Positions 3,201 through 62,029 of a DNA stretch of 64,000 nucleotides are shown here, in pieces. A program made the translations under genes and the position numbers. The notes beneath the pieces were generated by a model. It was not told the DNA's origin and made no database searches. It saw only the letters and a list, made by a program, of their open reading frames with translations. The stretch's first letter is position 1, and the number at the start of each line of letters is the position of its first letter. The DNA comes from Naegleria gruberi (Eukaryota): NCBI GenBank assembly GCA_000004985.1, contig GG738855.1. One strand, given 5' to 3'.

Positions 3201-3456
3201 TTCCCAATATTTAACTCAATTTATTGTTGCCCTCTTTGGATACATTCATCAAGAACAAGAATTCACCAATTGTTTGCGTGACTTCCTGGTCACACTCAGA
3301 GAATATCAAGGTGAAGATGTTGATGTAAGCGATTTGTACTTTGAAGAGAAGCAAAAGAAAGAAATTGAATCACGACAATTGCGTGAATCAGTTCCAGGTT
3401 TGGATGGTCCATCTGCTGTAAATGAACTTGCGCAAAGCTATGATGATGACCTCTAA
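222..3456 (+). CDS. XPO1: Exportin-1 (CRM1) nuclear export receptor; 2 exons join(222..317,358..3456), about 1064 aa
   Basis: The long ORF aligns along its full length with CRM1 (the importin-beta N-terminal domain, the central conserved region and the C-terminal acidic tail). The 32-aa upstream exon MEALLDFNAPFNVSLLDQIIDCLYSSRGNIQE matches the CRM1 N-terminus. It is joined to the main ORF by a 40-nt intron with a GTAAGT donor at 318 and a TTAACAG acceptor ending at 357, in phase 0. Confidence 0.9.
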
Positions 3457-6030: not shown

Positions 6031-9000
6031 TTATAGGAAAGGCATCCACCAGATGTACATACTCTTCAAGTTTTCTTCGTTGGTTGCTTCATCGATCAAG
6101 TAATCAACCTGACCAGAAATACTGAGAGGAAGTGCACTATCACCAACAATTCCTTGAAGTTTTTGTCCAATTATTTTGTGTGCCGAATCTACATCAGCAG
6201 AATTCATGGCTTTCTTGGCTTGGTTTTCTTTCTTCTTTTGAATTTGTTCCCAATCCAGGAGTGGATCGTGTTTGAAGGTTTCTAAAACATTCAACAACGT
6301 TTCATTATTCTTTCTCAACAATTCCAAAGTTGCTTCACAGGTCAATCTAAAAGCTCCTTCATATCCTGTAACTCCCATACCATCTATCATATTTCTGGTC
6401 AATCTGAATGGTACTTTTTCTGGTATGTTCAATAGTCTACCACTTTCGAACAACATTGCCAAGTCAACATGGATTGTATCTCCATTGTTGGTGTCTATTA
6501 AAATGTTTTCGCTATGTCTATCACCCAATCCTACTATATATCCAACCATACTCCAAACTGCTGCTGTCTTGACAAAGTTGAGACGATTCTGATACCACTG
6601 GTTTGGTTCTAAAAATTGATGTAAGAAATATTTACCAAAAACTGGTGGGTAATCCTTAACTGCATAGTCAAATGCTGTTCCATAGCTTTTCTGTGGAACA
6701 CCATTGGATTTTCCAAACTTTGTTAGTATTGATTGTTGCAAAGGTTGCTTTTGCATTCTTAAATATTCATCATCAATAAGTTTTCTCAAAACATTTGTAT
6801 TAGGAACCCATTCTACTAGACCTGTATTATTTGAAAGTGGGATGGCTGAGAATAATCTAAGATACAACCTCTTATTTCTAGTTTTCTTGTCACGTTTAAG
6901 CATTCTATTGATGACAGCATTAAGATCCATCATTCTGTTGTCTTTTCTAATGTCATCATTTGCTTTGAATAAGAAATCATAACGATTTCCATCTGAGCCA
7001 GTAATTCCAATCTTTTTAGGTTTTTGTAATGAGTTCATAACAGTACCTTCTTCGTGAAAACTATTGATATAGACTTTTGAAGAGTTATAAGGTGAGTAGT
7101 CTGTCTTGATGTGTTGGTTCTCATCAAAAATATTAGCTTTTTGAATTTCCACAGAAATGAGTGATTGGATTGGTATGATGAAATTTTTGCATGGATTCAT
7201 AACACATGAAGGTAAGTACTTGAATTTTCTTGCAATCATCTCAGTCTTTTTTTCTGGATTCTGTACCACTCCATCGTAAGCTTTACCATTTTTAGTTTTG
7301 AAAATGTTCAAGCTAAATTTTCTTTCCTTGTCCGGCTTTTGAATAAATGCTTCACATAACTCATTAAATCCTCTCAGTGTCTTTTTTTGATTTTCAATTA
7401 TACACCTAGCTACATTGCTTATATTATCAGCTGACTTGGCAGTAGCAATTATTTCTTTTATAGCTTTCTTTCTTTCTTCCTTTTCACTTCTGCAACCAAT
7501 AGTCCAAATACTTTCTTCTGGGAATGCTAGTAATACTTTTGTAATCATTTTTTTGATGGCTGAACAAACACTATGACTCAAATGAGATATTCTAGAATAT
7601 AATTGGGGAAGAGAAATAGCCCAAACATAGTCTGGAAGATTGTTAATGAGCTCAACGATAACGTCATTCACTCTAGTTTCTTTAGCTGATGTTTTCACGC
7701 TCTCATGTTCCATCCATAATGTCAATAATCTTGGTAGTGCTGTAAAGATATTCTTCACACCATATTTGATTGATTGACCATAGTTTTGAATAATTATACT
7801 AAGATCGCCTGCTGATGCTGTTTTTTCTTCCTTTTTTAGAACAGCACTATATGACTTATCTAGATATGAGGCCAAAAAGAAATAACCCTCTTCCCATTGC
7901 TTGTCAATATCTATAACCTCTTTGTAGGCTCTAACTACATCTGTCTTTTGCTTGTGTTCTCTATCCCAATTAACATTCAATAATTTAATCTTAGCTGTTA
8001 GTAAATCAGTTTTCTTTTGTGTTGAATGGCTTAATGTTGGTTGTTCACTCCTAAGAAAATCTGTAAGCATTGGTATGGCTTTTTGAACATCACCTATTTC
8101 GTATAATAATTTAGCCTTTTCAACAGAATAAAGTGGAGAATTGAGATTGGATCTTGCCAAAGCCGTTTCAGCAATATGGTATTGTTTTTCTTTTCTTGCT
8201 TGTTTAGAAATGTGCAACCATAATTCACTGATATTTTCGGGAAGATTATGAATTTTAAAGATACATCTTCTCACTGAATACAATAACTCTCTTTCAGAGG
8301 ATGAGTTGGTGGTGATTTTGAGGTTCTTATCCAAATATTGAAGGAAATGCTCTAACTCTGGACTTAATTCCTTTTCCTCTAGATCTGGTAGTGTAGTAGA
8401 GTTGTAAATTCTGAATCCTCTTTCAAGTTCAGATAGCACTTGAAGCTTTAACAAGTCAGGATAGCATCTTAAATAGCTTTCGCTAGATCCAGCTGACAAA
8501 GATGTAAGGATATCCTTTTTGGCATATATTAGTTGCTCATCAAAACTTTTACAATCCTTTTTAACGTAGAAAGAGAACAATTTGGCAACGTGTGTATCAA
8601 AAGATGGAACGGAAACTTGTTCTAATGAAGAATCAAGCTCACTCCAATGTCCAAGTCTCCAGCGGGCTTGAAGAATAAATGTTGCTTTTGTATTCTTTTC
8701 AAATGGATATCCATTGATTATCTGGAACATGGTATTGTATTGTCCAAGATTCAAATAGCACCTTAATAAGGAATCAAACTGTGCTGGAGTTAAGCTTTGA
8801 TTTTCTAATAGAATTTCATATAGATCTCTTGCATCTGTCCATTTCTCATCCACTTCCTTATCTAAAAGGATTTCATTGATTTCAGAATGGGTACGCATAG
8901 AAGCTAAACCTGCCATACTGTCACGATCTTTTGTTTGAGAATAAATTCTTTGCAGATTATTACCAATATCCTTGTCTAAATTTCTGAAATCTTGACCTTG

Positions 9001-12000
9001 GTCTCTAATGTATTCCTCGTAGTACATAAGTGATCTATAAAATGCTGAGTGATTAAATGCAGTTGCAGCAAGGGATCCAAGTGAAATACTTCTTAAAATC
9101 TTCTCTGCTTTTTCAACAGATTCCTTAAGAAGGCCTTTCTGATTCCTCATTTCAGGTGCGCTCATTTCAAACCATCTCTTAAGGTCATCAATAAGACAGA
9201 AAATTGTCTGAGCATGTTCAGTTGTCTGAGAATGTTCTTCAGCCTCTGACATTTTAAGGTCATGATCAATGACGGACATTATTTCTGTGCCAATCTCACC
9301 TCTATCAGAATCTTGACCAAAGAGTAGAACATGATGGACTAGATAGGGTAAAATAATTTTCACTAATACTTTGTCTGTACTAATCATAGGTCTTGCAGCT
9401 TTAAATATTTCCGATCTTTTAGTATTGAAATTTTTCATTTTTGAAATCAAGAACTTGGCCCAAGAGGCCATCCACTTGGAGATTGTAAGACTTCCTTTGA
9501 ATATAGGTAATTTGTATACGTGTTCAGTACCTGATACTCTCAAGCCTTGATCACCTGTTATCTTGTACTTTTTAGATATTTCTTGAAACACCTTTTTATC
9601 CAGTGTTTGAACTATTTTCAACAATTCTTGTCTTGTAAAATTAATTTTAGAAGTGTTACAAGGACTGACTTCTGTATGATCAAAAATTAACTCTATCAGC
9701 TCAACATCTGTCTTTTCAGTGTTGGCTACAATGGTTGGACCAATATTTAGAGCAGCTGGATCAATTGCTCCAATTTCACTTAAAGCAGTAGCTGAAAGTA
9801 ATTTAATAACCTCCTGTGTATCACTACAGCTTTTAAGTAAAGCTGTAACAAGTTTGTTAATAATATTATTTACACTCGACTCTGAAAGTTCAAACATTGA
9901 AATAATTTTTCTTTGAATTATTTCCTTATTTTCACTCAGAATACCTATAAGGGTTTCCAAAGCATTTTGCTTGACTGTAACATCTGATTGTTTAATACCA
10001 GGCAGAAGAAATTCTAACTTGGCATCTAGTGACAGTTTTCCAATCTGTTGCTCAATAAATTCATTAATAGGAGCCAGATCTTTTCTCTTGGATAAATGCA
10101 ATAGTGTGAAATCCAAACTTTTCTTGTTAGTCTGAATTAACTTTAGAATACATAAACATAATTTGGTTCCAAAATCAGAGGAATCAACAATTCTACAAAG
10201 AGCAGATATTATAGAGTTCATATTGTTAACTGGAATGTTCTTGTCATTAAAATGTTTCATCATGAAGGATTCGAAAGATTGTAACACATCTATTCTAAAT
10301 GAACATCTCAAAAGATGAGTTTGATAAATCTCCAATATTTCTTTAAAACATGTTCCAATTTCTGCTTCAAATACATCAATCATATTCACAACAATATGAA
10401 ATCTTTCTCTTTGTTTGATTTCAGATGCTCCCTTATCTTTGAAAACTTTCGAAATTTTGATTAAAATACCAGAAATATTCCCTTGTAATACCTTTTGCAC
10501 CATCTTTTTGTCACCAATACTATTTAGAAGTTTTTTCACTTTTCCTTTATGTTCATTATTAAGAAGTTTCATAATAATATTTTTAAAGGCTGTTGATATA
10601 ACTAAATTGGCTTGAACTTTTGTAATTTCAGCGGCCTTAATAAATTTTTCAAAACTTTCTAGTGGAGTTTTGTCTTTTTTGATAAATTCTGTAATAATAT
10701 TCTCAATATGTTCAATGATAATAGTAGAAAATTCGTTACTATTTGATAGTACTAATATTTGATTACGAAAACGTAATAACTCCCCCTCTACTGCCATCTC
10801 TGGCAGGACATGCTTTAATATTTTTGAAGCTATTTTTGAAAACTCCATATCAAATAGGGAAGATAAAATGTTTTGTAATTTGTTCTGATTGAAATACTTA
10901 ACCCAATATGCGAATAGAGTCATGAAGAACTCGTCTCCTATTGATGATGAAAGATACTTTAAAATTCCTTTGTTGTCGGCTAGTTTCTTCAAAGATATGT
11001 AAACAATTGATGATTGATCAAAATCTAGAGATACTTCAGTAAAGAAAAATAGGACATTTCTTAATGTCTTTGGGCAATTATCCAGTATGAGTTTCAGTAA
11101 TGGAATGATATAAAAGTAGTATTTGAGAGTCATCTCTTGATTATCTGTGTTTTCCTCATAAATTTTCCTGAGGAATGTTTTGATTTCGTCTACAAAAAAA
11201 TTAAAAGGGTCATCATGTAGTTGGTAAATACTTTCAATCGGAACTACTAGATTTCTATTTGGAGTTATCCATATAGAGAAAATTGATGTTGCGAAAGCAA
11301 CAATTTCAATGTCCTTATGCATTATCATTTTCATATACCTGACCATATCTTCAAAGTGTAAATCAATTTCCTCTTTTCTTATATTTTCAATAAAGAATGC
11401 AACACATTTGAGTAATTGTAATTGTGTTTTCTTTTCAACCTCAGAAGGTTCCAAAATAAAATCCCAATCACTTAGTCTAAAAACGGAATTATTTAAACTT
11501 TCTTGAATGGTTTCTTGTATTACCTCGCATATGATTGGCCTACAACTGGCACGAGAATAGAGCTTCCTTAGGTGATGGCTTACTTCTGCTAGGTCAAACA
11601 TTTTGAACCTAACAATTTCAGGGAAGCACTTTATCACTGCTTTTACTGATGCTTCACTCAGTTCTAGTTGTTCTAAAACTACTGTCTTACATGTTTCATC
11701 AAGAGTTAATTGATAAAATCGAATAATATTTTTCAGTGCTAACACCAAAATATCTTCTTCCATTTCTTTAGCATATAATTCTACTCTACTGATACAATAA
11801 AGTCTCAATTCATTAACTCTTTCAGGGTCAAGATGTTGTGGAATATTATTTTGGAATAAATTGTCTATCATGATAATTGGATGTTTTGAGTACTATCAAT
11901 GATTAACTTCTGAATCTAATGAGAACTTACTTCAGTACAATTTTTGGTATAATCAATCAATGAGTGAATGAGGTCAATAAGAGCCAAACTATCCTTTACT

Positions 12001-18430: not shown

Positions 18431-20317
18431 ATGGAAACTTGCGAAAATCATCACAAAAAAATGAATCAACTTCCCGAAGATTTGATCTTTTCAATTTTTC
18501 TCTATTGTCCCAAGACTAGTGATGTAGCAAATTTGCTACAATTGAATAGACATTGGTTGGGTGTGGCAAGATATGAAGCCTTGTGGCGGATGAGGTTTGC
18601 ATTCCATTTATCGGATAGAATTAAGAGTGAGGAGGAAAGATTGGCCGATAATCAACAAGCCTTGTCAACTTCTAGATCAAAGGGAACAATTAGAAAATTA
18701 AAATTACTTGCAAAGAGTCATGTTGATGAGGCTGAAAAATTGTACACCAGAGAGAAGGTTTGTGAACACGGAGGAGATGATGATAGAGAACAAGGTATTG
18801 ATTTTTATACTGGATTCCGTTTCTATACAATCTTTAAAAAGGAAATTGAAGGTTTAAGAATTGGAAAAATGACTGAGAAACTGATGGAGCTCATATCTTG
18901 TAATTATGAAAGGACTAATTATGCAGTTAATGATGAGAATATTTTGACTGATGAAAACCCATTGAAAAAGAAATGGAAACGGTTTATTGACTTTGTTGAT
19001 TCCAATTTGGTGCCAGACTCAGAGTCTGCTATCACAGATCAATATTACATGTTACAAAAAAATTGTACAGCTCAGTTTGCAACCAAATTTGAGGCAGATT
19101 TATCCTCAATGATGAAAAAATTGAGAAAGTATTTTTTCAAACTTTCAAAACCTAAAGAAGAACTCTATCAAGAATTTAACAATGCAGTTGCAAATATTTT
19201 GGAGCCAGTGAGGATACTGACAGACACCTCAAAATACAAGTATCCTATTGATGCTTACAAATGCCTTCCTGTAGCTGTTGAATCTATGAATTTTGATTTG
19301 GTACACTCACTTCTCGTTTCCATCAAGGATGATTGTAAAAGAACTGATTCTGAAAGACAATATCGTGACATTTCTGTGAAGAACGGAGATGCACTTGATT
19401 TTTGCAAAAAATTAATGACGTCATTTATGAACAAATCCTATCCAGTGGAAAATATTATGTATTTCTTGAATAGTATGGTTGTGATTTTTCCATCCTTGAT
19501 GCATGAATTGAGGAATAAGAACCATGCCAAGTTTAAATGTGATGAAGATTTATTGGCCAACTCAATAATTGATTGTAGAAATTACTATACAGGTATGGAA
19601 CTTTCTATGGAGCTCTTCGAGAAGGCAATTAGAGGTATGTAGAATTTAGTATTAATTTTTTGACTTTCAAAAGATTGGGGATTTCCAGAGGGTTCTAACT
19701 TTGTATCAAAGCTTTTGTATAGTTATCATAATGTCTGTAAAGTTTCAGATTTCACCTCCTCTCTGAGGAGAGATGTAATAGATACAGGAAAGCTTATTCA
19801 CCTTATTGAATTATATGAGGAGGTTTCTGGTGAAAAGTGTGATGATGAATTTGCATTCCTCTGTGCCGCATGTACCCCAAATGTTGAACTATGTAAATAC
19901 TTTACAGATACAAGAGGATTATCTTTGGAGAAAAAAATAACCAGTGGCATGCACGCACTGCCATATGGTTATATGAACTATTATTATCCACAGACCGAAG
20001 ACTTCATGTCAAAGATCGAATTTCTACTTGATAGAATGGATAATTTTTTCAATTATGAAATTGCTGACATAGTCAACACTGATCCACTTCTGAGATTTTT
20101 CTATTCCATTGCTTATGCTGATGCTAATCTTGTAGAAAATGAAGAAAAATATTTTAGAGTATTGAGAAAAATGTTAGACAAGAGACCAGACCTTGCTTAT
20201 AAAATTCGTGGTGATACTTCTGCTTTGGATATTATTGACCACCTAAAAGATGTAGAAGCGGTACAACAGGCAATTAAGATTATTGAGGAATACCAAAAGA
20301 AATGGGAAACAGAATAA
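18431..20317 (+). CDS. F-box domain protein; 2 exons join(18431..19634,19689..20317), about 610 aa
   Basis: The N-terminal F-box motif (LPEDLIFSIFLYCPKTSDVANLLQLNRHWLGVARYEALW) is clear. The first ORF ends at a GTATGT donor at 19635. The ATTTCCAG acceptor ending at 19688 joins it in phase 1 to the downstream ORF, which lacks an ATG in the correct frame. A TTGAC branch-point-like site lies within the 54-nt intron. Confidence 0.6.
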
Positions 20318-20348: not shown

Positions 20349-23300
20349 TTAAATCAAGAATACAGACAATACAGAAAATACAATAGCCAACAAGCCAGCA
20401 AAGTTTGTTGAACCAGCACTGATAACCTTACTCTTAGAGGTCTTTGGAGTGATAACAGTTGTACTCTTTGAGGCAGTTGGAGTGACAGTAGAAGTACCGG
20501 TAGCAATAGATCTACTGACAGCATAGGTACCACTTTGTGAAACTTGAATAGTGGCAGAAGAGGAAGAAACAATTGAAACACTACAAGATGAATCCTTACT
20601 GAAAACCTTGGTTGAGTTATTCCAAAGCAAACAATCATATTTGGAAGTACTTGTACCCAAAGTAAAGTTACCACTAAGAGTAATTCCAATCTTCACTCCA
20701 TTCAAGCTCAGCTTGGCACCAGTATCAGCATTTTCCAAGCTAAGTTCAAAGAGTTTGGACATAATGGTCATACTTTGAGAATAAATTGCCTTATACAAAT
20801 TGCTCAATTGCTTGATATTAACACCAATTGAAGTAATCGATGAGGAGAAGCCAGCAGTAAAGTTAGCAGGCAATTGATATTGAGTATTATTAGCAATAAC
20901 TTCACTGTAAGAAGCAGTAGAAGATGCAGAAATCTTCTTGGTATAAACAATAAATTCACTGCTTGAGGAAATTGAAGCTGCTTGATCGAGGAGTTGATTC
21001 TTACTCATGCCTGCCAATAAACTAGCAGCACTGTCCAAAACAGATTGTGAATCAGTGGCAAGAGATCTCAAAGCTTTAGCACTTCTTGTAGAAATACCAG
21101 AGCTGGATAAGATATTCTTAATAAAGTTTGATAAGGATGAAGCAATTGAATTGGCAAGATCACTTGAAATTGGCTTATCAGAATTTGCCAAAGCAGTCAA
21201 TGACGAAGCAGTAGATTGCAACATTTGACCTCTGGTATTGGAATCAACCAAATCCAAACTATTAACTGCAGCAGAAATGAATGAAATGGTTTCAGCAGCA
21301 TCTTCAACACTAACAGCAACTTGAGATTGCTTACTCAAAACTGAACTAATAACATTGACAAGGAAAGCCTTGACTTGAGTAACAACTTCAGCTGCCAAAT
21401 TTTGATTAGAAATTGAAGACAATGAAGAAACTGCAGCAGCACTACTAGCAGTAGAATCAGCAACGTTAGCACTTTGGTTAAGGAAATTCAATGCAGCTGA
21501 ACCACTTGTCAAATCAGGAGGATTAGAAATAACACTTGTTTCAATATCACTGAAAGCATTCTTTGAATCGAATACTCTAGCTCTAATTCTCAATTTCTTA
21601 TCAGCAGCTGGACTAGGTGGCAATTTAGCTTGAACTTGATTATCAGTAGTTCTACCAGACAATGTACTCCAGATTCCACGAATGGCATCATAGAAGAAGA
21701 ATTGATAAGTCAATGGAGAGTTAGAATCATACCATCCACTACATGTGACGGTAACAGTATCAAGACCAGCAGTACTACTTGCAGGACTGGCACTAATGGC
21801 TCCTGGCAATGGTGGGCTGTTAACAGTAAATTCGAATACAGAGTAACCACCTGCATTTTGAGTAGAAACATCAACACGAACTGAATAAGTAGTATCGGCA
21901 GAAAGTGCCTTACCAGAGATGAGCAATGAACGACCACTTGTCTTTGAAATAGTTGTTGATCCTTCACTCAAAGTGAAACCTTCAGTCAATGAAGACCAAG
22001 TGAAATTGATAGGATTTTCTTGAGCTGGAACATAATTCAATACATCAACAATGAGTGGAATATTTTCACCAAGTGGAATTGATGATGGAATCCAATCATT
22101 TCTAGTAAGTCTAATACTAGCAGTAAGAACTGCATAACCAACCATTGAAACATAAACTTCTTGTGATGCAGTTCTTGATCCCTTAGTATAGGTTATAACA
22201 ATTGAATATTCACCTTCTGGTAATGAAGCAGCAGGGAATGTAGCAACCTTATTAGAAATAACACCTGACATGCTGTATGAACAAGCAGAATTGGTTAATA
22301 AATTGGTACATGTTGCTGAGAATGTATCAGTGCTTGCATCTCTAGCTGGATCATAAGATCTAGTGAAATCAATAGCAAAACTTGTTGTAACAGAGGCCTT
22401 TCTAGTAGTACCACCAGTAATCATCAAGACAAGATCGGTAGCAATAACTTGCAAAGTAACAGTAGTTTCATAGGATGAAGCTGGTGATGCCTTAGCAACA
22501 GCTCTAACCTTGAATGAATAGGTACCAGCAGATGGGAAAGCATTTTCAAGGAAAATAGCAACTCTATTGTTATCTCTTAATGTCATAGTAGCTGTGGCTG
22601 GTCCAGATTCTTGTGACCAAGTCCAAATCAAAGTACGATCACTGAAGAAACAAGATGGATATTCAACAATTGGAAGAATAGAATATAAACTACCCATATT
22701 GACAGATTGAGAAGCACCACCTGGAATACGAACAATAACTGATGGAGTTGATGAAACAGTAAACTTGAAACTAGAAATGGCAGTTAAATTGAAACCATTT
22801 GTAACAGTGACAGACATGGTAAATTCACCATTTGATAATAAAGAAGCGTCCAAATATCCAAAACTTCCACCAACAAGAGCCAATGAAGCAGAAGCAGCAG
22901 TTAATGAACCAGGTCCAGAAATTGAGTAAACAAACTTCAAAGGTCTTCTATCAACAGAAACTGAAGCAGAAGCATCAAATAAGAAAGTAGTACATGAAGA
23001 AACATTCTTTGGACCACGCAATTCAGCACTTGGAGGTAAGAATGAAGATCCACTACTAGTAACTGAAACTGAACCAAATGCATTGTCATTATTTTTAACT
23101 TGGAGAGCATCACCTGGCAAAAGAGAAGCAGCACTACCCAAAATGATTTGGAATGAATTCTTTGAACGATCATCCCATCTACAAATTGGAGCAGAACCAA
23201 CAGCCTTCAATGATGATTCAGATAAAACAACAGCACAATCAATGTTGTTAGTTAATGAGGGGAATGCAAATTCGAATGAAACTCTATCACCAATAGAACC

Positions 23301-26300
23301 AAATGTTGCACTTGAACCAAGTTTGATATTACATTTGGATCCACTCCAACCAGAGGCACATGAACTACAAGATTCACCAGCATACATACCCAACAAGTTG
23401 TTGGAAATACAGGAACAAGCACCATTAGCAGTACAGAAACCATTTCCACTACATTTCTTCATTGGATCACAAGTAACATTACAACTAGGTCCATACCAAG
23501 AAGCAATACAAGTTCTACAGAAAGGACCAGCAAAGTTTCCAGTACAACTACAAGTAGTATCAGCATTACAAGTACCTCTTCCCAAACAAGTAACATTAGC
23601 ATTACAAGCTAAACTCTTACAATCAGCACCTCCATAATTAGGTTGACAAATTTCACAATTAGAGCCAGCCCAGAAACCACCTGCTTGAGTTGAGTTACAG
23701 ACACAGGTATTTGGACCAACACAAGCACCATGTCCCATACATGGATTATTTTCATAAGAACCACAAGTGAAAAGTTANNNNNNNNNNNNNNNNNNNNNNN
23801 NNNNNNNNNNNNNNNNNNNNNNNNNNNACAACTTTGAGGTTTGATCAAGACCAAAGCAAACAAAGAGTGAGCATGTTGATCCTGCATAACCCTTAGCACA
23901 GACATTACATTCATTACCAGCCCATCCATTCTTACAGACACATTTATCTGGACCTGAACATAAACCATTTCCAGAGCATGAACCAACAGTCTTTGAGTAA
24001 CAAACAAAGTTTTCACAATTTGCACCATATCTGGTTGTATTACATTGACAAACGTCTTGAGCAATACATTTACCACCACCTGAACAAACGCTCAAGCTTG
24101 ATGCAGCAACACCCTTACAAGTAATAACTGTAGTATTTGTGTTGGAATTTGAATTAATTTCACAATTCTTTCCAGTGAATCCTGCATTACATTGACAATA
24201 ATCAATATCAATACATTTACCATTTCCTGAACAAACCTTAGAATTATTTGACAAGATGCCAAAGCATGATAAAATGTTTTGGTTATTGTTGTTGTTAATT
24301 TCACAACTCTTTCCACTGAAACCACCATTGCATTGACAAGCATCAATACCAATGCATTTACCGTTTCCTGAGCATACATTAGTATTATTGGCTAATAAAC
24401 CAAAACATGATGGGGCAATTTCACAATTCTTTCCATTGAAACCACCATTGCATTGACAAGTGTCATTGGAAATACATTTACCGTTTCCTGAACAGACCTT
24501 AGTATTGTTTGACAAGAAACCAAAACATGATGGCATTGGTTGATTGTTGTTGTTGTTATTAATTTCACAATTCTTTCCATTGAAACCACCATTACATTGA
24601 CAAGTGTCATTGGTAATACATTTACCATTTCCTGAGCAAACCTTAGTATCATTGGCTAACAAACCAAAGCATGATGGCATTGGTTGATTATTGTTGTTAT
24701 TATTAATTTCACAATTCTTTCCAGTGAAAGAAGGATTGCATTGACAAGTGTCATTGGCAATACATTTACCGTTTCCTGAACATGCATTAGTATTATTGGC
24801 CAATAAACCAAAACATGATGGCATTGGTTGGGTACCATTTCCATTATTTTCATTATTTGGATTAGGTGGCAATTCGTAATTCATTGGGTAGTAAACAGTA
24901 TCAATAGCAATATCAAGTTGAGCACAAATACTGGCACCATTGACAGAGATTGGAATATTCATTTCAACTGGACCAGATCCGGTATCCTTAGCAAAACCAA
25001 GCTTACTTGGAAGAGGTGTTTTGAGAGGTGAAGGAACCTTATTCAAACACAATTTAACACCAGTCATATCATTATCGAATGAGTAACCATTACCAAATAA
25101 AACACCAACGGCTGATTTGGTTGCATTATTAACAATTACAACAGTGTTAGGATTTCTAAAAGTAGTTCTAGCTTCAACAAATTTAACATCATTGAATGAT
25201 ACTTGAGGAGGAACAGTAATAAAACCAAATGATAAAGAATCAGAAACAGTATTCTTGTCTGCTCCAGCAGGAACAACAATATGACTATCAGTAAATGTTA
25301 AAAATTTCATATTGCTACAAGCTGGATCAGAACCATCACCACATTTACATGAAGTGAATGTGATAACATTTTCTTGCATATTTGTCAAACAGGTCATCTT
25401 CTTAGCAACCAAATCTGGCTTCATATTAGCAACCATTGTAGTATAAACCTTAGCTGGAATTTGAGATTCAGGATTCAATGACCAAACCCATTTTCTTGAG
25501 GCAACAGGTTTAGTAACATCCCATTTCAATTCCTTTTGAGAAGCCTTAACCCAGTTACCATTTCTGAAGTTGTAAACATTCTTAATTACAACACCATTTG
25601 TACATGAACTATCCTTACAAGTTGAAAGAGAATTGAAAAGACCATTTTGTGGATTGAAACAACCCTTGAATGCATGACAGGCATCAACATTATTTGGAGG
25701 AGCCAATTCCCAATATCCTAAAGGACAGAAAGTATTTGGAACTGCATTGAGAGGAACAGTGAAATTATTGTTACTAATTGAAACATTAAACTTGGCAGCA
25801 ACTTGAGCACTAGAATCTTTACACAAACACATATCCATCAACTTGTCATATGAACAAGTGGCTGGACAATCTGCCAAAACAGAAGGAACAGCACAAATAA
25901 CACCATGAACAGGATAACCTTCACATACACCATTAGCAGTACAAACTTCAGTTGAGTTGCAATCAGGACAATTAATATCACATTCATAAATATTATCGCA
26001 ATTACTCTTAAGCATGGCTTGATTTGCCTTACCACACATAACGTTTGTTGGACAAGTAGTGTTATCATAGAAATAACCATCAGCATCAGAATCAATCATT
26101 GAGCAATTCAATGTACTATTGCAGTAAAAACAACCTTCATTACCACAGCTAGTGAATGGGCAACTGGTAACACTTTCACAAACCTCTTTAGTAACTTGTG
26201 GGACTACAGCATTAGTAGCAAGATCGATACATTTTGGAATCATGACATTGTTAGAAATAACCAATGGAACAATATCTTCCTTAGTAGAATTAATTAACAA

Positions 26301-26950
26301 ACCAAAAACAGAAGAAAAGGAAGGAAGGGCCATAGGTCCATAATTACCCTTAGTATTCAAACAATCAACAAATTCATCTGGAGTGGATGACTTGTCACAG
26401 CCAGAACTCTTGATAATTGCAATTTCATTATCAATAGCACTTTGAATGGAAGAACCATCACACAAACCAACCTTAACTTCTGCTGNGAGGAATGCCAATG
26501 AAGCTTCAACTCTAACATCTTGGAACAATTCATATTACTCATTGAATTGATATCATAAAATGCAAAAGTAGTATCTCTTCTGGTGCAACATTGGTTATTA
26601 GAATTACCACAACATGGATCATTCTTCCATGCAGCATCAAGTGGAGAAATATTACAGGCACCTGAGAAATCATTCAAGGTAATTGGAGTTTTGTTATTCA
26701 AGGCGAGTCTTTGGGCAACTGTACAAGTACCTTCAGTATTTACATTGGTTCCTAGGAAGGCAAAGGCAGAAGCTCCCTTAGCAATTTTGAAAGCAGGTTG
26801 TGCATTAAAACCAGCATATTCAGCCTTAGCTTGAGCAGGAGTACAAAGTGGCTCTACATTATTTACAAGTGCTACTAAGATAGTAACTAGAATACACACA
26901 ACAACTAGTGAGACGTAGCTCTTTAGATTGTATTTACAGTGTATGTACAT
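20349..26950 (-). CDS. Large type I membrane protein with multiple EGF/tenascin-like modules, interrupted by assembly gaps; about 2100 aa if it is one gene
   Basis: The 26950-end ORF starts with ATG followed by a hydrophobic signal-like segment and a Cys-rich domain. It continues into at least 12 EGF-like modules of the form CSGNGKCIxNDTCQCNGGFNGKNCE, then a long S/T-rich extracellular region, and ends with a C-terminal transmembrane helix (AGLLAIVFSVLSVFLI) at 20349. A 50-N gap at 23778-23827 falls inside the EGF array. A single N at 26486 coincides with a +1 frame change between the signal-peptide ORF and the main ORF. Confidence 0.7.
23778..23827. other. Assembly gap (50 N) inside the EGF-repeat gene
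   Basis: An uninterrupted run of n characters in the sequence. Confidence 0.99.
24170..24835. repeat. Tandem coding repeat: at least 6 near-identical copies of a 126-129 bp EGF-module unit
   Basis: Direct repeats are visible in the nucleotide sequence. The units starting near 24421, 24541 and 24671 are about 90% identical, and each encodes one EGF module plus an Asn-rich linker (INNNNNNQPMPSCFGLLAN). Confidence 0.8.
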
Positions 26951-27335: not shown

Positions 27336-29591
27336 CTATTGAGATGTATAGGTTTCTGGTACGTTCAATAAGAATACAACACCATCATATCCACTCAATA
27401 AACACCAATTTTTGAGATCCTCATGTTTGGATGGGTGATATAAGCATCTGTGCATTGCCAATCTGATATCTGGTGTTAGCTTTTCATTTTTGAATCTAAA
27501 AGGTAGACGAGTGAATTTTTCGCCTGGGTTGTCTGCATCTTTAAAGTGATAAGGGAGTGAGTAGCATACATCAGCCTTATTTGACAATTTGTATGTCATT
27601 TCTGGATCAGTTTCAGAATAGTCATTATCATTTGTGACAAGTTCCACTTGTAAAAGCAAATCATCAACTCTATTATCGACTGCTCTTCTCTTCTTTCCCA
27701 TAGAATCTTGTTCTAATGATAATACTTCTATTCTTCCTGTTGCTGTAGCAACTAGAATACTAGAACGAGTTGATGAAATAGAAATATCCCATATTGGACC
27801 ATCACATGTAGAAAAAAGTTGGAAAGCATTTTCAACAGCATCAAATTGTCTAATGGTACCGTCGTGTGAAACAATAAGGAGAGCATTTGATTTTTCTGGA
27901 AACGCCACTCCAGTCATCCAAAAACGGTTTCCACTCAAAGAGGCATAATAAGGATAGAAAATATCCCTCACGTCCCAAATTTTGAAAAATCCATCATTAC
28001 TACATGTTGCAAAAATATATTCGTTCATAGTAGGATCAAACCAAGAGATACTTCGAATGGATAGGTCATTAGTTGGATGGCTATGTCCAAAAACAGAGAC
28101 TGCATGTTCGAGAATATTTCCCTCAGTATTATTAAGAACCTTCCAAAGTGAAATTGTACCATCATGATAACCACTCACAAAATATTTTAAACTAGGAGAC
28201 CATGAAATAGTGTATGGTACCTTTAGAGAGGCATTATTTTCAGAATCATGCTGTAATTGAGAGTAAACTTCTGGTTTGAGCGATATTACAAGCCTTTCAT
28301 CTTTTCCTAGTTTAATATTATTCTTCGATTCGTATTCTGATAAAATCTGTGAGTAGTGAGGCACGTTCAAAATAATGACAGTTCCATCAGAACATGCACA
28401 AGCTAATATTCCAAGTCTTTCATTTTTTACATATGAATTTGGCATCCATTTCAAATCCCAAATAAATCCATGATCGTGCTCAATATAGAATTGGACATAT
28501 GGATCCCTATTCAATTGCTTATCCGAAAGTTTTCCAAAATTCCAAATTTGAATTTTTCCACAATGTTCAACATCTGAAATTGTTGGAACTTTCACATTAC
28601 TATGACTAGCATCGAATAATTCTCCTTTCATTGTTGGCTTTCCTGTTTTATGAAATGATGAATGAAGAGTATGAGGTGCAATGGCAACAAGTTGTTCCTC
28701 CTCAGCTGAAGGTCGACTCACCCAATCCAAAGCCCAAATAGGTGCTCCAATATTTAACATGGCAGCTGAACATTCAGTACCAACTCTTGTTGCTGTATGA
28801 AGATCCAAATTAATTTCACTACATCCTCTTTCATTAGTATCACATTCAGTGTATCCTTTTCTTTCTTTTTGAGGTTCTGTGTTTAATAGAATAGTCTTGG
28901 AAAACTTTTTTTGTGCTTGTTGTGGAAAAGTGACAACATCAGTGATGGATATTTTCCTAATATTTACAATTGACGAAACTCTATCTGGACATGAAGATGC
29001 CGAGTCCAAACTTTCATTTGTGATATAATCAGTCAAATAACGAACATCTTTTGTTTTTTTCTTTGTTGATGACTTTTTTGTAGAGGCTTTCTTTGTTCGG
29101 GTGGGTGTTTTAGTTGGTGTTTTTGGTTCGGATTTACTTTTAGTTGGTGTTTTTGTTTTTGTTGGTGTTTTTGGCTTCTTTGTTGCTGATGATTTCTTTT
29201 TCTTCTTTGATTTTGGTTCGTATTCTTCCTCTTCTTCCTCTTCTGAATCTAATTCACTTACTACTTCTTCCTCTTCTTCATTATCGGAGGGAACATATTC
29301 CTCTTCCTTTTTCCTCTTCTTTTCNNNNNNNNNNNNNNNNNNNNNNNNNNNNNNNNNNNNNNNNNNNNNNNNNNNNNNNNNNNNNNNNNNNNNNNNNNNN
29401 NNNNNNNNNNNNNNNNNNNNNNNNNNNNNNNNNNNNNNNNNNNNNNNNNNNNNNNNNNNNNNNNNNNNNNNNNNNNNNNNNNNNNNNNAAGCTCGTGGTT
29501 TTCTTGTTCTCTTTGATCGGGTTGTTCTTGGTGGAGTTGAAGCAGATTCATCATCTTCATTCTCTGTTTCTTCCTTCTTTTTTCTTGGCAT
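27336..29591 (-). CDS. WD40 beta-propeller protein with a basic, KTPT- and acidic-rich N-terminal low-complexity region (contains an assembly gap); 751+ aa
   Basis: ATG-initiated ORF. The C-terminal 450 aa shows WD-repeat signatures (GHSHPTNDLSIRSISW, SGYHDGTISLWKV, CSNDGFFKIWDV, VSHDGTIRQF). The N-terminus is Lys/Glu-rich with a TKTKTPTKSK repeat. A run of 164 N at 29325-29488 falls within this low-complexity region. A role as a TFIIIC-beta-like or chromatin WD protein is possible but unproven. Confidence 0.6.
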   Translation of the reverse strand: MPRKKKEETENEDDESASTPPRTTRSKRTRKPRAXXXXXXXXXXXXXXXXXXXXXXXXXXXXXXXXXXXXXXXXXXXXXXXXXXXXXXXEKKRKKEEEYVPSDNEEEEEVVSELDSEEEEEEEYEPKSKKKKKSSATKKPKTPTKTKTPTKSKSEPKTPTKTPTRTKKASTKKSSTKKKTKDVRYLTDYITNESLDSASSCPDRVSSIVNIRKISITDVVTFPQQAQKKFSKTILLNTEPQKERKGYTECDTNERGCSEINLDLHTATRVGTECSAAMLNIGAPIWALDWVSRPSAEEEQLVAIAPHTLHSSFHKTGKPTMKGELFDASHSNVKVPTISDVEHCGKIQIWNFGKLSDKQLNRDPYVQFYIEHDHGFIWDLKWMPNSYVKNERLGILACACSDGTVIILNVPHYSQILSEYESKNNIKLGKDERLVISLKPEVYSQLQHDSENNASLKVPYTISWSPSLKYFVSGYHDGTISLWKVLNNTEGNILEHAVSVFGHSHPTNDLSIRSISWFDPTMNEYIFATCSNDGFFKIWDVRDIFYPYYASLSGNRFWMTGVAFPEKSNALLIVSHDGTIRQFDAVENAFQLFSTCDGPIWDISISSTRSSILVATATGRIEVLSLEQDSMGKKRRAVDNRVDDLLLQVELVTNDNDYSETDPEMTYKLSNKADVCYSLPYHFKDADNPGEKFTRLPFRFKNEKLTPDIRLAMHRCLYHPSKHEDLKNWCLLSGYDGVVFLLNVPETYTSQ
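29325..29488. other. Assembly gap (164 N) inside the WD40 gene low-complexity region
   Basis: A run of n characters. Confidence 0.99.
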
Positions 29592-29652: not shown

Positions 29653-31479
29653 TTACAATTTGGAGACGAATTGATAAACAAATTGGCTTTGTCCATTTTC
29701 TTCCTTCCATTCTCTTTGAACATTTGAAACAACTTCCTTCAATCTTGGGTAGGCACAATCAACTTGCCAGTTTCCGAAAATATCACTCAAGATGGAGTCA
29801 ACATACCAGATTGGAGCAGTTGACAATTCCTTCTCGAAATCCTTGATAGCACAAGATGCACTTCCTTGCCATCCACCCTTTTGTAAAACAATGCTGGCAA
29901 CCTTTCTTTCAATAACATCACTGAACTTGTTCATGTCATTGGCACTAATCTTACCATCTTGAACACCTGGTTGATCATATGCATTAATAGCGCGGAAAGC
30001 AGCCAAAATTGAAACAATTCTTTCTTCCAAAGCAATCATCATACCAATGTTGAACATATCACATTGTTCATATGTACATGAGAGGAATGGTTTACCATTC
30101 TTATACAGAGCATTTTCAGTACCCTTAATGAAACCAAGCATTTGTCTACCCATACTCAAATAGCTTGTTCCCTTCTTGGAATATTCAGTCAAATCACTGG
30201 CAGCAACCTTTTCACCGGCAAGTTCTTGCTTATCGGTTGGGTCAAGAACTGAATAATCAGAGTTTCTCTTCAAATAGTAAACAAATTTAACAATGCAATC
30301 ATTGATACCCTTTTGAACTTGTTGCATGAAGGCATGTTGTTCACCAGTACCAACACCACCAAAAACAGTTTGACCTTCTGGACTTTCAACACCAGAATTT
30401 TCAGAGAATTGTTTACCCAAACTTTCCATATACAATTGTTGTAAATAGTGAGCAAATTCACGGAGTGAATCAGAATAGCCAAGAACAATCAAATTCTTTC
30501 TACCATGTCTCTTTTGATAATGATCCATAAGAATAGCTGTAACTAAGGCTGGATTCTTCAATTGATTTTCAACTGTATCAAATCTTCTGGTCATTTCATC
30601 CATGTAAGATTGACCACGCAAGAATCCAGCAAAGTCCAATTTAGCAAAAGCAGCTGGAACCATTCCAATAGCACTACCAACACTAGTTCTACCACCAGTT
30701 TCTTCGTTCATGTAGAATGTATGTAAGAAGTGATTCTTTTGAGCAAACTTGTCAAAGTTACTATTCTTTGTAGTAATAGCAATATTATATGAACCAATAT
30801 TACCATTTTGTGCAATACCTCTGTCCAATAATAATCTATTGAAAGTATTCATATTTCCCTTAGTTTCGGCAGTACCACCACTCTTTGACATGTTAACAAG
30901 TAAACTTTCGCTCAACTCCAAAACACCCTTCTCTCCAAAAAGTTGATCAAAACTATCAGAGTCAGTATTACTGACAAAGTATAACTTTGGCAAACCTTCT
31001 TTTTCTTGCAAATCATTGAAATAAATACCCTTCATGGCAACACATAACAACAATGGTCCCAAATAAGATCCACCAATACCATTGAAAATGACATTCTTGT
31101 AAGCCTTTCCTGTTTGTTCATTCTTTAATTGACCACTAATAATTTTACCAACTTTTTCATTAATATCATTCCATAACTTTAAACTATCATCCAATGATTT
31201 TCCAGCAACTGTTGATGAAGCCAAACGTAAATTATAGTGATCAACACTACGATTTTCTGATTCCGATGCAATAACAGTCTTATTTACAATTTGTCCATTT
31301 TCAATTTCTTTAATCTTTTGAGCAGCAACTTTAACTGCATGAACATAATTTTCCTTCAATAGTGTTTGAATAGTTGTTGTTGGTGATGCTGTTTGAGACA
31401 AGAATCCAGAAATATTAAAAGTAAAATTAGTTTCCTTGTCGTGGAAAATATATCCAGGTGTAGTGTAGAGTTTATCCAT
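29653..31479 (-). CDS. PGI: Glucose-6-phosphate isomerase of divergent bacterial-like type, about 608 aa
   Basis: Phosphoglucose isomerase (SIS-domain) signatures are present: GIGGSYLGP, GGRTSVGSAIG, QLYMESLGK, GTGEQHAFMQ and INAYDQPGVQDGK. It lacks the canonical DMESNGK and GTNGQHAF forms. The track ORF starts at a TTG at 31557, and the first ATG (MDKLYTT...) is at 31479. Confidence 0.8.
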   Translation of the reverse strand: MDKLYTTPGYIFHDKETNFTFNISGFLSQTASPTTTIQTLLKENYVHAVKVAAQKIKEIENGQIVNKTVIASESENRSVDHYNLRLASSTVAGKSLDDSLKLWNDINEKVGKIISGQLKNEQTGKAYKNVIFNGIGGSYLGPLLLCVAMKGIYFNDLQEKEGLPKLYFVSNTDSDSFDQLFGEKGVLELSESLLVNMSKSGGTAETKGNMNTFNRLLLDRGIAQNGNIGSYNIAITTKNSNFDKFAQKNHFLHTFYMNEETGGRTSVGSAIGMVPAAFAKLDFAGFLRGQSYMDEMTRRFDTVENQLKNPALVTAILMDHYQKRHGRKNLIVLGYSDSLREFAHYLQQLYMESLGKQFSENSGVESPEGQTVFGGVGTGEQHAFMQQVQKGINDCIVKFVYYLKRNSDYSVLDPTDKQELAGEKVAASDLTEYSKKGTSYLSMGRQMLGFIKGTENALYKNGKPFLSCTYEQCDMFNIGMMIALEERIVSILAAFRAINAYDQPGVQDGKISANDMNKFSDVIERKVASIVLQKGGWQGSASCAIKDFEKELSTAPIWYVDSILSDIFGNWQVDCAYPRLKEVVSNVQREWKEENGQSQFVYQFVSKL

Positions 31480-31866
31480 TTTGTTATTGACTAAAGTAAT
31501 TTGATGATGAATGTGATAATAGTTGGTATGTTGAGTTGATACTTCTTGGTACAACACTTACAATTTTTTTTAAACTTGTTTGCTAAGCTGAAGGTTTCAA
31601 AGTGACTTTTTGAATCTTTTGTTGTTGCGACTATCGACCCATTTAAGGTATTTTCGACGTGAGGATGCATTTTTTATTTAATTAATTTCTCCTCATTTGA
31701 TTGAGGCGATGAAGCATTGATGAATTCGTGAGGATAAAGTTATTCAGGCATGCTATTTAATATTGCTCCGATTTGTTGCATTAGTTGGAAGTGAAAAATT
31801 GTGAAAAGGATCAATAATAATAATTTAATGATTTATTTTTGATGGCAATAAATAATAGGTGTGGAT

Positions 31867-61500: not shown

Positions 61501-62029
61501 GGGTGTTCGTTTGGGTAAGAAGTTCAAGGATGTCTATAAGGCAATTACTGGTTTGAAACACGAAGAATTGGTTTCATTCTTGATGAAGAAGGAAATTGTT
61601 TTGTGCGGTGAAACTATCAACAATGAAGACTTGATTGTGGCTAACAAGTTTGTTGGTACTGAAAAGAATTACTTTGCTGATGAATGTGGTACTGGTACTT
61701 TGATTTTGAACACTGACTTGTCAGAAGAATTGAAGGAATTAGGTTTCGTCAGAGAAGCTGGTAGTAAAGTCCAACAAATGAGAAAGGAAGCTCGTCTCAA
61801 GTTTGAAGATAAGGTTGACGTTTTCTTGACTGGTAAGAGTTCTCAAACAGTAGTTGAAGTTTTGAAGAAGCACTCTGCCACTCTTGCTCAACATTTGAAG
61901 GGTATGGACGTCTTCTTTGAAGCTGTTCCTTCTGGAAAGGATTTGATCATTCAACAAGAAATGAATGTTGACAGATTAACTCAAGAAGAAAGCAATGTTG
62001 TTGTTTTCACGTTGATTAGAAAAGAATAA
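58570..62029 (+). CDS. IARS1: Cytoplasmic isoleucyl-tRNA synthetase; 2 exons (exon 1 58570..about 58734, exon 2 58868..62029), about 1108 aa
   Basis: Exon 1 encodes [32 protein letters not shown]...[10 protein letters not shown], which is collinear with eukaryotic IleRS. Exon 2 begins [41 protein letters not shown] (the HIGH region) and continues through the editing domain, a KMSKS-like motif (SKMSKSKKN) and the anticodon-binding and C-terminal domains. The intron of about 133 nt ends at TTTTCAG (58867). The exact donor is ambiguous (see findings). Confidence 0.9.

What the first reader, a model, noticed from the sequence alone, without database searches (positions are those of the whole stretch)
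20349..26950. Giant EGF-module adhesin-like gene with near-identical tandem repeats, two assembly gaps and a stop codon abutting a gap
A predicted type I membrane protein of about 2100 aa spans this region. It has a signal peptide, a Cys-rich domain, at least 12 tenascin-like EGF modules, a long S/T-rich stalk and a C-terminal TM helix. At least six EGF modules plus Asn-rich linkers are about 90% identical at the DNA level with a 126-129 bp period, which suggests recent unequal crossing-over. This kind of structure collapses in short-read assemblies, and a 50-N gap (23778-23827) sits inside the array. Immediately 5-prime of the gap, reading along the minus strand, there is an in-frame TAA at 23775-23777. 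The locus is therefore either two tandem paralogues (one secreted, one membrane-anchored) or one gene with a mis-joined gap. A single N at 26486 coincides with a +1 frame change between the signal-peptide ORF (frame of 26950) and the downstream ORF (frame of 26528), so the current reading frame at the N-terminus is unreliable.
Basis: seen in the sequence. Interest (0 to 1): 0.55.

Follow-up and report, generated by a model that had tools for sequence, protein, structure and literature searches.

The report
Naegleria EGF–REJ surface glycoprotein gene
This is one ordinary but very large Naegleria gruberi gene for a cell-surface glycoprotein (cysteine-rich head, EGF array, polycystin/REJ-type module, lipid-anchor-like tail); it looks broken into three pieces only because of a missing base and a short gap in the draft assembly.

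Summary
The window is Naegleria gruberi. The region 26950-20349 (minus strand) is one intronless gene of about 2,200 codons. It is already in GenBank as XP_002680062.1, "basal body protein NBP family". That model lacks the first 206 codons and hides the gap inside an invented intron.

The closest N. fowleri homologue is a single uninterrupted 2,016-codon ORF, collinear with the whole locus. It places the frame change at 26521-26520 (one base missing), 34-35 nt 5' of the N at 26486. It shows that the 50-N gap hides about 25 codons of one EGF module. The TAA aligns with Glu (GAA), a one-base difference at a contig edge.

- Five modules, not six, are alike, at 78-89% DNA identity, with a period of 120-144 bp rather than 126-129.
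- The gap lies about 330 bp outside that array.
- The "S/T-rich stalk" is a PKD/REJ module (Pfam REJ, 136 bits) plus a GAIN-like region whose GPS motif has decayed.
- The C-terminal "TM helix" ends the protein and looks like a GPI-anchor signal.

N. fowleri has two modules where N. gruberi has six, so the EGF array has expanded in N. gruberi relative to it. Verdict: a real gene, mis-assembled and mis-annotated, of modest interest.

The parts
20349..26950 (-). Whole gene. It is intronless, with 2,182 readable codons plus about 25 hidden in the gap. It corresponds to GenBank XP_002680062.1/EFC47318.1, whose model is truncated and mis-spliced.
   Evidence: ORFs. Concatenation is 99% identical to the window by tblastn. 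P0001 identity and names. Collinear with the N. fowleri 2,016-aa single ORF.
26864..26950 (-). Start codon and signal peptide-like segment (MYIHCKYNLKSYVSLVVVCILVTILVALV). The GenBank model omits it and starts at 26333.
   Evidence: Hydrophobic window at residues 8-24, one of only two in the protein. Translation. The annotated start at 26333.
24873..26863 (-). N-terminal cysteine-rich domain of about 660 aa with no Pfam match. It is shared with N. fowleri (31-35% identity) and with metagenomic proteins P0006/P0009. Its fold is unknown.
   Evidence: No Pfam family. Representative search gave P0005 at E=4.7e-85 and P0006 at 7e-10. Cysteine columns are conserved. The AlphaFold model failed, pLDDT 34.
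26520..26521 (-). Site of the frame change. The text reads tgt tcc aa|gat gtt, that is Cys-Ser-(two bases)-Asp-Val. One base is missing from the third codon.
   Evidence: A C-x-x-D-V motif is present in N. fowleri (CISDV) and P0009 (CHIDV). Frame A matches up to CS and frame B from DV onward.
26486..26486 (-). Single ambiguous base inside the in-frame codon nca (Thr/Ala/Ser/Pro; N. fowleri has Pro). It is not the frameshift itself but marks a low-quality stretch.
24141..24836 (-). Five tandem units, each one EGF module plus an Asn-rich linker, of 144, 144, 120, 141 and 147 bp. The EGF cores are 78-89% identical in DNA. Each core carries 1-2 N-x-S/T sequons.
   Evidence: TRF. Pairwise identities and spacing. 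Unit translations and synonymous/non-synonymous counts. Four of these units have no counterpart in N. fowleri.
23328..24140 (-). Diverged EGF and laminin-type EGF modules: five complete ones plus one interrupted by the gap.
   Evidence: Cys-pattern scan. Pfam EGF_Teneurin, EGF_2 and EGF_TEN. 55% identity to N. fowleri over the EGF region.
23778..23827 (.). 50-N scaffold gap inside one EGF module. The collinear N. fowleri sequence has 25 residues here (VCSGNGACVAPNKCQCKNGAFGERC), so about 75 nt are probably missing.
   Evidence: The GenBank model bridges it with a false GT..AG 'intron' at 23917-23681.
23775..23777 (-). TAA at the first three bases of the contig after the gap, in frame with the downstream EGF frame. 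It aligns with Glu (GAA) in N. fowleri and Gln (CAA) in P0004, one base away from either.
21441..23327 (-). String of about six beta-sandwich (PKD/FN3-like) domains that includes the Pfam REJ match at 21441-22538.
20511..21503 (-). GAIN-like region: a predicted helical part (21003-21503) followed by a beta part (20511-20819).
   Evidence: Secondary-structure layout of the model, at low confidence, pLDDT 25-55. It aligns with the region of P0002 that ends in a Pfam-significant GPS motif.
20517..20633 (-). Degenerate GPS-like segment CLLWNNSTKVFSKDSSCSVSIVSSSSATIQVSQSGTYAV. The first Cys, the Trp and the second Cys are kept. The C-x-C pair and the HL/T cleavage triad are lost.
   Evidence: Column-by-column alignment with P0002 CKYYDELARKWTSDSTCTVAQYNSTVLVCDCTHLTLF. 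P0002 scores 25.9 bits on Pfam GPS (cut-off 22.5). The N. gruberi and N. fowleri segments give no GPS hit.
20403..20513 (-). Short Ser/Thr-rich (49%) stalk of 37 residues. This is the only true mucin-like linker.
   Evidence: Composition by region. Translation.
20349..20402 (-). C-terminal hydrophobic 17-mer FAGLLAIVFSVLSVFLI followed directly by the stop codon. Small residues (SAGS) lie upstream. Probably a GPI-attachment signal rather than a membrane-spanning anchor.
   Evidence: The same layout is seen in N. fowleri, P0002 and P0004.

Best explanation
This is one intronless Naegleria gruberi gene (26950 to 20349, minus strand).

Its product, about 2,200 residues long, reads in this order:
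1. A signal peptide.
2. A lineage-restricted cysteine-rich head of about 660 aa.
3. An array of 11 or more EGF modules joined by Asn-rich, N-glycosylation-sequon-rich linkers.
4. About six PKD/FN3-like beta-sandwiches forming a REJ module.
5. A GAIN-like region with a decayed GPS motif.
6. A 37-residue Ser/Thr stalk.
7. A C-terminal hydrophobic signal.

The three apparent breaks are defects of the draft Sanger assembly:
- One base is missing at 26521-26520, in a stretch that also holds an N.
- About 75 nt of one EGF module are missing in the 50-N gap.
- There is probably a miscalled first base (GAA or CAA read as TAA) at the edge of the next contig.

Shown here: the domain content, collinearity with an intact N. 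fowleri homologue, the positions of the defects, and the extra EGF units in N. gruberi.

Inferred:
- The protein is secreted, heavily glycosylated, and held on the outer face of the plasma membrane, most likely by a GPI anchor.
- There it acts as an extended adhesion or recognition molecule. The Cys-rich head would be the binding end. The EGF array would be a rigid spacer whose length changes by unequal crossing-over. The REJ/GAIN-like part would be the membrane-proximal stem.
- Because the HL/T triad and one disulphide pair of the GPS are lost, the Naegleria proteins probably do not self-cleave. The metagenomic relative P0002, which keeps a canonical GPS, may still do so.
For: - Organism and database identity: P0001 is XP_002680062.1 of N. 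gruberi NEG-M.
- Single gene: N. fowleri P0008 is a 6,051-bp uninterrupted ORF in two independent assemblies. It aligns end to end with the concatenated N. gruberi frames across both defects. P0002 and P0004 also carry EGF plus REJ in one ORF.
- Frameshift site.
- Gap content and the TAA aligning with GAA/CAA.
- Domains: Pfam EGF families and REJ. GPS is above its cut-off in P0002, at the aligned position. The beta-sandwich string is seen in the model and the fold searches.
- Only two hydrophobic segments exist, at the two ends.
- Repeat expansion.
- No further stop or frameshift occurs in 6.6 kb.
- Sanger origin of the assembly, and evidence of GPI-anchored proteins in Naegleria: PMC9928731.
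Against: - No reads, cDNA or second N. gruberi assembly could be consulted, so the missing base and the TAA could be real in the sequenced clone.
- Orthology with the N. fowleri gene is not backed by synteny. No neighbouring genes are shared within +/-8 kb.
- GPI anchoring and the adhesion role rest on sequence layout and analogy only.
- The fold of the head domain is unknown.
Confidence: 0.8

Rival explanations
1. Recently inactivated gene or null allele. The one-base deletion at 26521-26520 and the TAA at 23775-23777 are real, and the locus is a young pseudogene, or one dead haplotype of a heterozygous clone.
For: Two independent disruptions occur in one gene. No independent N. gruberi sequence could be found to contradict them.
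Against: - Apart from these two points, 6.6 kb stays open, with cysteine patterns and 55% identity to N. fowleri conserved on both sides of each defect.
- Both defects sit exactly where sequence quality is flagged as poor: 34-35 nt from an N, and in the first codon of a contig after a gap.
- The TAA is one base from the GAA or CAA of the homologues.
Confidence: 0.12
2. Two tandem paralogues. An upstream secreted protein ends at the TAA and a downstream anchored protein starts at ATG 23738, with the gap as an intergenic spacer.
For: TAA abuts the gap, and an ATG opens the 1,129-codon ORF 36 nt downstream.
Against: - The 36 nt between TAA and that ATG already encode the start of an EGF module (LFTCGSYENNPC) in the same frame.
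- The downstream product would lack a signal peptide and begin mid-module.
- The upstream part breaks off mid-module (CFGLDQTSKL).
- The two halves align to consecutive residues of single-ORF homologues.
Confidence: 0.03
3. The GenBank model is right. Translation starts at 26333, a 237-bp intron (23917-23681) spans the gap, and the product is an intracellular 'basal body protein'.
For: The modelled intron has GT..AG ends. The database name is given.
Against: - The 'intron' is in-frame EGF-coding sequence on both sides of the gap and is coding in N. fowleri, whose gene has no intron.
- The 206 upstream codons, including the signal peptide, are conserved in N. fowleri and P0009.
- EGF, REJ and GPS modules are extracellular.
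- No paper supports the NBP name.
Confidence: 0.03
4. The locus is one gene, but the EGF array is under-counted. The gap, or a collapse of the 78-89% identical units, hides one or more additional whole modules.
For: Repeat units of 120-147 bp are prone to mis-assembly and to copy-number change. The relative P0002 has more than 17 such units. The N-run length is only an estimate.
Against: - The units differ by 11-22%, which is enough for Sanger reads of about 700 nt or more to place them uniquely.
- The gap lies in diverged modules, not in the similar ones.
- The N. fowleri alignment needs only 25 residues to close it.
Confidence: 0.2

Closest known systems
Sea urchin sperm receptor for egg jelly 1 (suREJ1/SpREJ1). 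The REJ family is cited in PMC3677617; the suREJ1 architecture is from my own knowledge.
   Same: A large extracellular modular glycoprotein with EGF module(s), a REJ module next to the membrane, and a single hydrophobic segment at the extreme C-terminus rather than a multi-pass channel-like body.
   Different: suREJ1 has C-type lectin domains and few EGF modules. The Naegleria protein has no lectin domain, 11 or more EGF modules, and a unique 660-aa Cys-rich head. The organisms are as far apart as eukaryotes get, so common descent of the whole architecture is unproven.
Polycystin-1 (PKD1) family: PKD1, PKDREJ, PKD1L1
   Same: PKD-type Ig domains, then REJ, then GAIN/GPS, in the same order. 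The REJ module is built of FN3-like sandwiches (PMC3677617; model).
   Different: There is no PLAT domain, no 11-TM body and no polycystin channel region; only two hydrophobic segments exist. The GPS cleavage motif is decayed in Naegleria.
Adhesion GPCRs and other GAIN-domain proteins
   Same: A GPS motif sits at the membrane-proximal end of a long adhesive ectodomain. The relative P0002 has a Pfam-significant GPS with CxC-HLT.
   Different: There is no 7-TM domain. In N. gruberi and N. fowleri the HL/T triad and one disulphide pair are missing, so autoproteolysis and a tethered-agonist mechanism are unlikely.
Tenascin / teneurin EGF arrays
   Same: Tightly packed six-Cys EGF modules of the tenascin/teneurin type; the best Pfam matches are EGF_Teneurin and EGF_2.
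   Different: There is no fibrinogen globe or FN3 array as in tenascin, and no type II anchor, YD shell or toxin domain as in teneurin. The resemblance is at the module level only.
N. fowleri FDP41_005856 (XP_044559816.1 / CAG4712228.1), uncharacterised
   Same: The same architecture from signal peptide to C-terminal tail, with 31-56% identity by region.
   Different: It has two EGF modules where N. gruberi has six, and no Asn-run linkers. It lies in a different chromosomal neighbourhood.

Membership tests
EGF-like module proteins (Pfam EGF_2 / EGF_Teneurin) | Repeated six-cysteine C-x-C-containing modules scoring above the Pfam gathering cut-offs | tested here: met
   EGF_Teneurin 60.7 bits (cut-off 24.3) and EGF_2 51.2 bits (cut-off 22.1). 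Ten complete six-Cys patterns plus one cut by the gap.
REJ-module family (PF02010) | REJ domain match above the gathering score | tested here: met
   136.2 bits against a cut-off of 25, covering profile positions 49-440 of 452. Also met in P0004.
REJ-module family (PF02010) | REJ built of FN3/PKD-like beta-sandwiches (PMC3677617) | tested here: met
   Model residues 1-580 are all-beta, with block pLDDT mostly 60-89. Top fold matches are Ig/FN3/PKD strings.
GAIN/GPS proteins | GPS motif (PF01825) with two disulphide pairs and the HL|T/S cleavage triad | tested here: not met
   There is no GPS hit for the N. gruberi or N. fowleri segment even at E<=10. The alignment shows that C-x-C and HLT are replaced by I-Q-V and SGT. 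The homologue P0002 does meet it, at 25.9 bits against a cut-off of 22.5.
GAIN/GPS proteins | GAIN fold: helical subdomain A followed by beta-sandwich subdomain B that ends in the GPS strand | tested here: inconclusive
Polycystin-1 family | PLAT/LH2 domain and an 11-TM body after the GPS | tested here: not met
   No PLAT or PKD_channel match. The protein ends 54 residues after the GPS-like segment, with one hydrophobic stretch.
suREJ1-like single-anchor REJ proteins | C-type lectin domains N-terminal to the REJ module | tested here: not met
   No Lectin_C match in any part.
Tenascin | FN3 array and C-terminal fibrinogen-like globe after the EGF array | tested here: not met
   No fibrinogen_C match. 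The region downstream of the EGF array is PKD/REJ.
GPI-anchored surface proteins | N-terminal signal peptide, plus a C-terminal hydrophobic tail with no cytoplasmic residues, preceded by small omega-site residues and a short spacer | tested here: met
   The hydrophobic 17-mer is the last 17 residues, with SAGS 4-7 residues upstream. Three homologues share the layout. No dedicated predictor was available, and actual lipid attachment cannot be tested here.
'Basal body protein NBP family' (GenBank name) | Any published definition or basal-body localisation | not testable with these tools
   No paper defines the family. The only text hit is a BLAST label in a mussel transcriptome. All recognisable modules are extracellular.

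The most novel reading that the evidence does not exclude
A REJ plus GAIN/GPS stem, so far discussed mainly for animal polycystins, sperm REJ proteins and adhesion GPCRs, exists in Heterolobosea. There it is fused to an EGF array and to a previously undescribed 660-residue cysteine-rich head, and it is held by a GPI-type tail. One environmental relative keeps a canonical cleavable GPS, while the Naegleria proteins have lost it. If so, the REJ-GAIN module predates animals by a very long way. Naegleria would then offer a natural cleavage-dead version for asking what the module does without autoproteolysis.
Probability: 0.5. Interest if true: 0.45.

Novelty: new member of a known kind. Interest (0 to 1): 0.3.

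Why it matters
Practically, the public gene model is wrong in three ways. It lacks the signal peptide and about 200 codons. It contains an invented intron that deletes parts of EGF modules. Its name ("basal body protein") does not fit an extracellular EGF/REJ protein. Anyone mining Naegleria surface or adhesion proteins, including for the pathogen N. fowleri, whose homologue is intact but unnamed, would miss or misread it.

Biologically, it adds a protist example of the EGF-PKD-REJ-GPS ectodomain layout. It also shows a clean case of EGF-module copy-number expansion between two Naegleria species. Neither point changes current understanding.

Full report
**What is in the sequence**

The window is AT-rich eukaryotic DNA, at 30-38% G+C. 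It carries ordinary nuclear genes: exportin-1, an ATR-type kinase, phosphoglucose isomerase and a class I tRNA synthetase.

On the minus strand between 26950 and 20349 there are three long open frames:
- 26950-26357, which starts with ATG and a hydrophobic leader.
- 26528-23828.
- 23738-20349.

There is also a 164-N run at 29325-29488 in the neighbouring gene. TAA at 23775-23777 touches the gap and is in the frame of the downstream ORF. The 36 nt between it and the ATG at 23738 read LFTCGSYENNPC, the beginning of an EGF module.

**Identity**

A search with the three frames joined found GenBank XP_002680062.1 / EFC47318.1, [quoted passage not shown], 1,915 aa.

- That model starts at an internal Met (26333) and so lacks the first 206 codons.
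- It jumps from ...KNGWAG to GFWAG.... This corresponds to a GT..AG 'intron' at 23917-23681 that swallows the gap, the TAA and parts of EGF modules.
- The N. gruberi genome is a Sanger assembly of 40.9 Mb and 35% G+C (PMC9928731).

**The repeat**

- Tandem Repeats Finder reports 2.9 copies of a 144-bp unit at 88% matches (score 660), with overlapping 120- and 141-bp solutions.
- Taking the 105-bp six-Cys cores one by one, five modules (starts 24815, 24671, 24527, 24407, 24266) are 78-89% identical. Their spacing is 144, 144, 120 and 141 bp.
- The sixth module is only 53-59% identical to them.
- Differences between units are spread over synonymous and non-synonymous codons.
- The linkers are runs of Asn (EINNNNNNQPMPS), and each core holds one or two N-x-S/T sequons.
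- The gap lies about 330 bp beyond its 3' end, among diverged modules.

**Domain content**

- Pfam finds EGF_Teneurin and EGF_2 above their cut-offs in the middle ORF.
- In the downstream ORF it finds a strong REJ domain (136 bits, E=1.6e-39, residues 401-766) with weak PKD-domain matches ahead of it.
- S+T content is 26-31% through the REJ and following regions. Only the last 37 residues before the tail reach 49%.
- An AlphaFold model of the last 969 residues (4-sequence alignment, mean pLDDT 59) shows about six beta-sandwiches over residues 1-580, with block pLDDT mostly 60-89. A helical block (586-752) and a strand block (814-916) follow at low confidence.

**The GPS question**

- The metagenomic relative P0002 (2,273 aa; EGF array, REJ-like region, C-terminal hydrophobic tail) ends its ectodomain with CKYYDELARKWTSDSTCTVAQYNSTVLVCDCTHLTLF. 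This scores 25.9 bits on Pfam GPS, against a cut-off of 22.5.
- In the alignments the N. gruberi segment CLLWNNSTKVFSKDSSCSVSIVSSSSATIQVSQSGTYAV occupies the same columns.
- It keeps the first Cys, the Trp and the second Cys. It has lost the C-x-C pair and the HL/T triad.
- It gives no GPS hit, and neither does the N. fowleri segment.
- I therefore call the region GAIN-like, with a decayed and probably non-cleaving GPS. The fold itself is not demonstrated.

**Ends of the protein**

- Only two 17-residue windows exceed a mean Kyte-Doolittle value of 1.8: residues 8-24 and the very last residues.
- The protein stops directly after FAGLLAIVFSVLSVFLI, with SAGS a few residues upstream.
- N. fowleri, P0002 and P0004 end the same way.
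- This is the layout of a GPI-attachment signal rather than a type I anchor with a cytoplasmic tail. This is an inference, since no predictor was available.
- A Naegleria pangenome paper reports evidence of GPI-anchored proteins in the genus (PMC9928731).

**Resolving the breaks with homologues**

An exhaustive HMMER search with the head domain found N. fowleri FDP41_005856 (P0005, E=4.7e-85) and a metagenomic fragment (P0006). The fuller N. fowleri model, P0008 (2,016 aa), is a single 6,051-bp ORF in two independent assemblies. Its alignment with the joined N. gruberi frames is collinear from signal peptide to tail. Identity is 31-35% in the head and about 55% elsewhere. Three points follow.

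1. *Frame change.*
   - Frame A matches up to ...SNMNCS and frame B from DVRVEAS... onward.
   - N. fowleri reads SCISDVSFEAG and P0009 reads SCHIDV.
   - The DNA is tgt tcc aa gat gtt, so one base of the codon between Ser and Asp is missing at 26521-26520.
   - The N at 26486 is 34-35 nt further on, inside the in-frame codon nca, which aligns with Pro in N. fowleri.
2. *Gap.*
   - CFGLDQTSKL before the gap aligns with CFGVDSLNKY.
   - (TAA)LFTCG after the gap aligns with EQFTCG.
   - N. fowleri has 25 residues in between, the rest of one EGF module.
   - About 75 nt are therefore missing.
   - The TAA stands where N. fowleri has Glu and P0004 has Gln (CQQFTC). GAA or CAA is one base away from TAA, and this is the first codon of a contig.
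3. *EGF copy number.* Where N. gruberi has six modules (24836-24015), N. fowleri has two. Four of the five similar units are thus extra in N. gruberi. P0002 has its own, larger expansion with NNNGT linkers.

**Interpretation**

The most likely reading is one intact gene whose draft sequence has a one-base deletion, a short gap and probably one miscalled base. A young pseudogene or a dead allele cannot be excluded without reads. It is disfavoured because everything else in 6.6 kb is open and conserved, and because both defects lie at flagged low-quality positions. The two-paralogue idea and the GenBank exon structure both conflict with the collinear homologues.

*Function (inferred).* The product would be a secreted, heavily N-glycosylated, membrane-tethered surface protein. 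It would project a cysteine-rich head on an EGF spacer of evolvable length, above a REJ/GAIN-like stem. The architecture points to an adhesion or recognition molecule. With no cytoplasmic part, any signalling would need a partner.

**Comparison with known families**

The nearest known layout is that of the sea urchin REJ proteins and the polycystin-1 ectodomain (PKD-REJ-GPS order).
- The PLAT/11-TM body and the lectin domains that define those families are absent.
- The GPS is not intact.
- It is therefore a REJ-module protein but not a polycystin, a suREJ orthologue, a tenascin or a teneurin.
- No paper in the searchable library links Naegleria with REJ or GAIN domains, names these accessions, or defines "NBP".

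**Limits**

- Two of the three big protein searches failed for technical reasons, so the number of paralogues in N. gruberi is unknown.
- The head domain could not be modelled.
- Orthology with the N. fowleri gene lacks synteny support.

**Verdict**

Several descriptive details are wrong. The locus is a mis-assembled, mis-annotated member of known module families, and of modest interest.

Noticed in passing
window 27336-29591 (minus), N run 29325-29488: The neighbouring upstream gene encodes a WD40 beta-propeller protein with a Lys/Glu/Ser-rich N-terminus. Its reading frame also runs through an assembly gap, of 164 N.
   Followed up: partly
window 18431-19642 (+) and 19715-20317 (+): There is an F-box-like protein gene (Pfam F-box-like, 27 bits). 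A 200-codon ORF with no Pfam match follows 72 nt downstream. It could be a second exon or a separate gene ending 32 nt from the stop of the EGF-REJ gene.
   Followed up: partly
L006 610-4059 (metagenome contig Ga0302271_10004998): This contig has no ORF over 90 codons in the standard code but a 1,150-codon ORF in the ciliate code (TAA/TAG = Gln). The ORF carries a REJ-like signature (PMTYQFFYYD), a weak GPS match (15.9 bits, below cut-off) and several hydrophobic segments. It looks like a polycystin-1-like layout in a ciliate.
   Followed up: partly
P0002 / L002 1503-8375: This metagenomic relative has more than 17 tandem EGF modules joined by NNNGT-type linkers and a canonical GPS (CDCTHLTLF). 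It represents an independent and larger expansion of the same kind of EGF-plus-Asn-linker unit.
   Followed up: partly
P0003 (3,686 aa, JGI metagenome): This protein shares only the EGF array. It combines about 30 EGF modules with a NIDO domain, a long region of parallel beta-helix-like repeats and a multi-pass C-terminal membrane region. It is an unusual architecture and was not pursued.
   Followed up: no
window 21285-21656 (+), antisense to the REJ region: An antisense open frame of the N. fowleri gene matches the antisense strand of the N. gruberi gene at 51% identity. This is most simply a by-product of conserved coding sequence on the other strand, not a gene.
   Followed up: no
window 364-3456, 6031-11871, 29653-31557, 59009-62029: The surrounding genes are housekeeping: exportin-1/CRM1, an ATR-type PI3K-like kinase, phosphoglucose isomerase and a class I aminoacyl-tRNA synthetase. 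No second EGF/REJ gene, tRNA or Rfam RNA lies in the 64 kb.
   Followed up: yes
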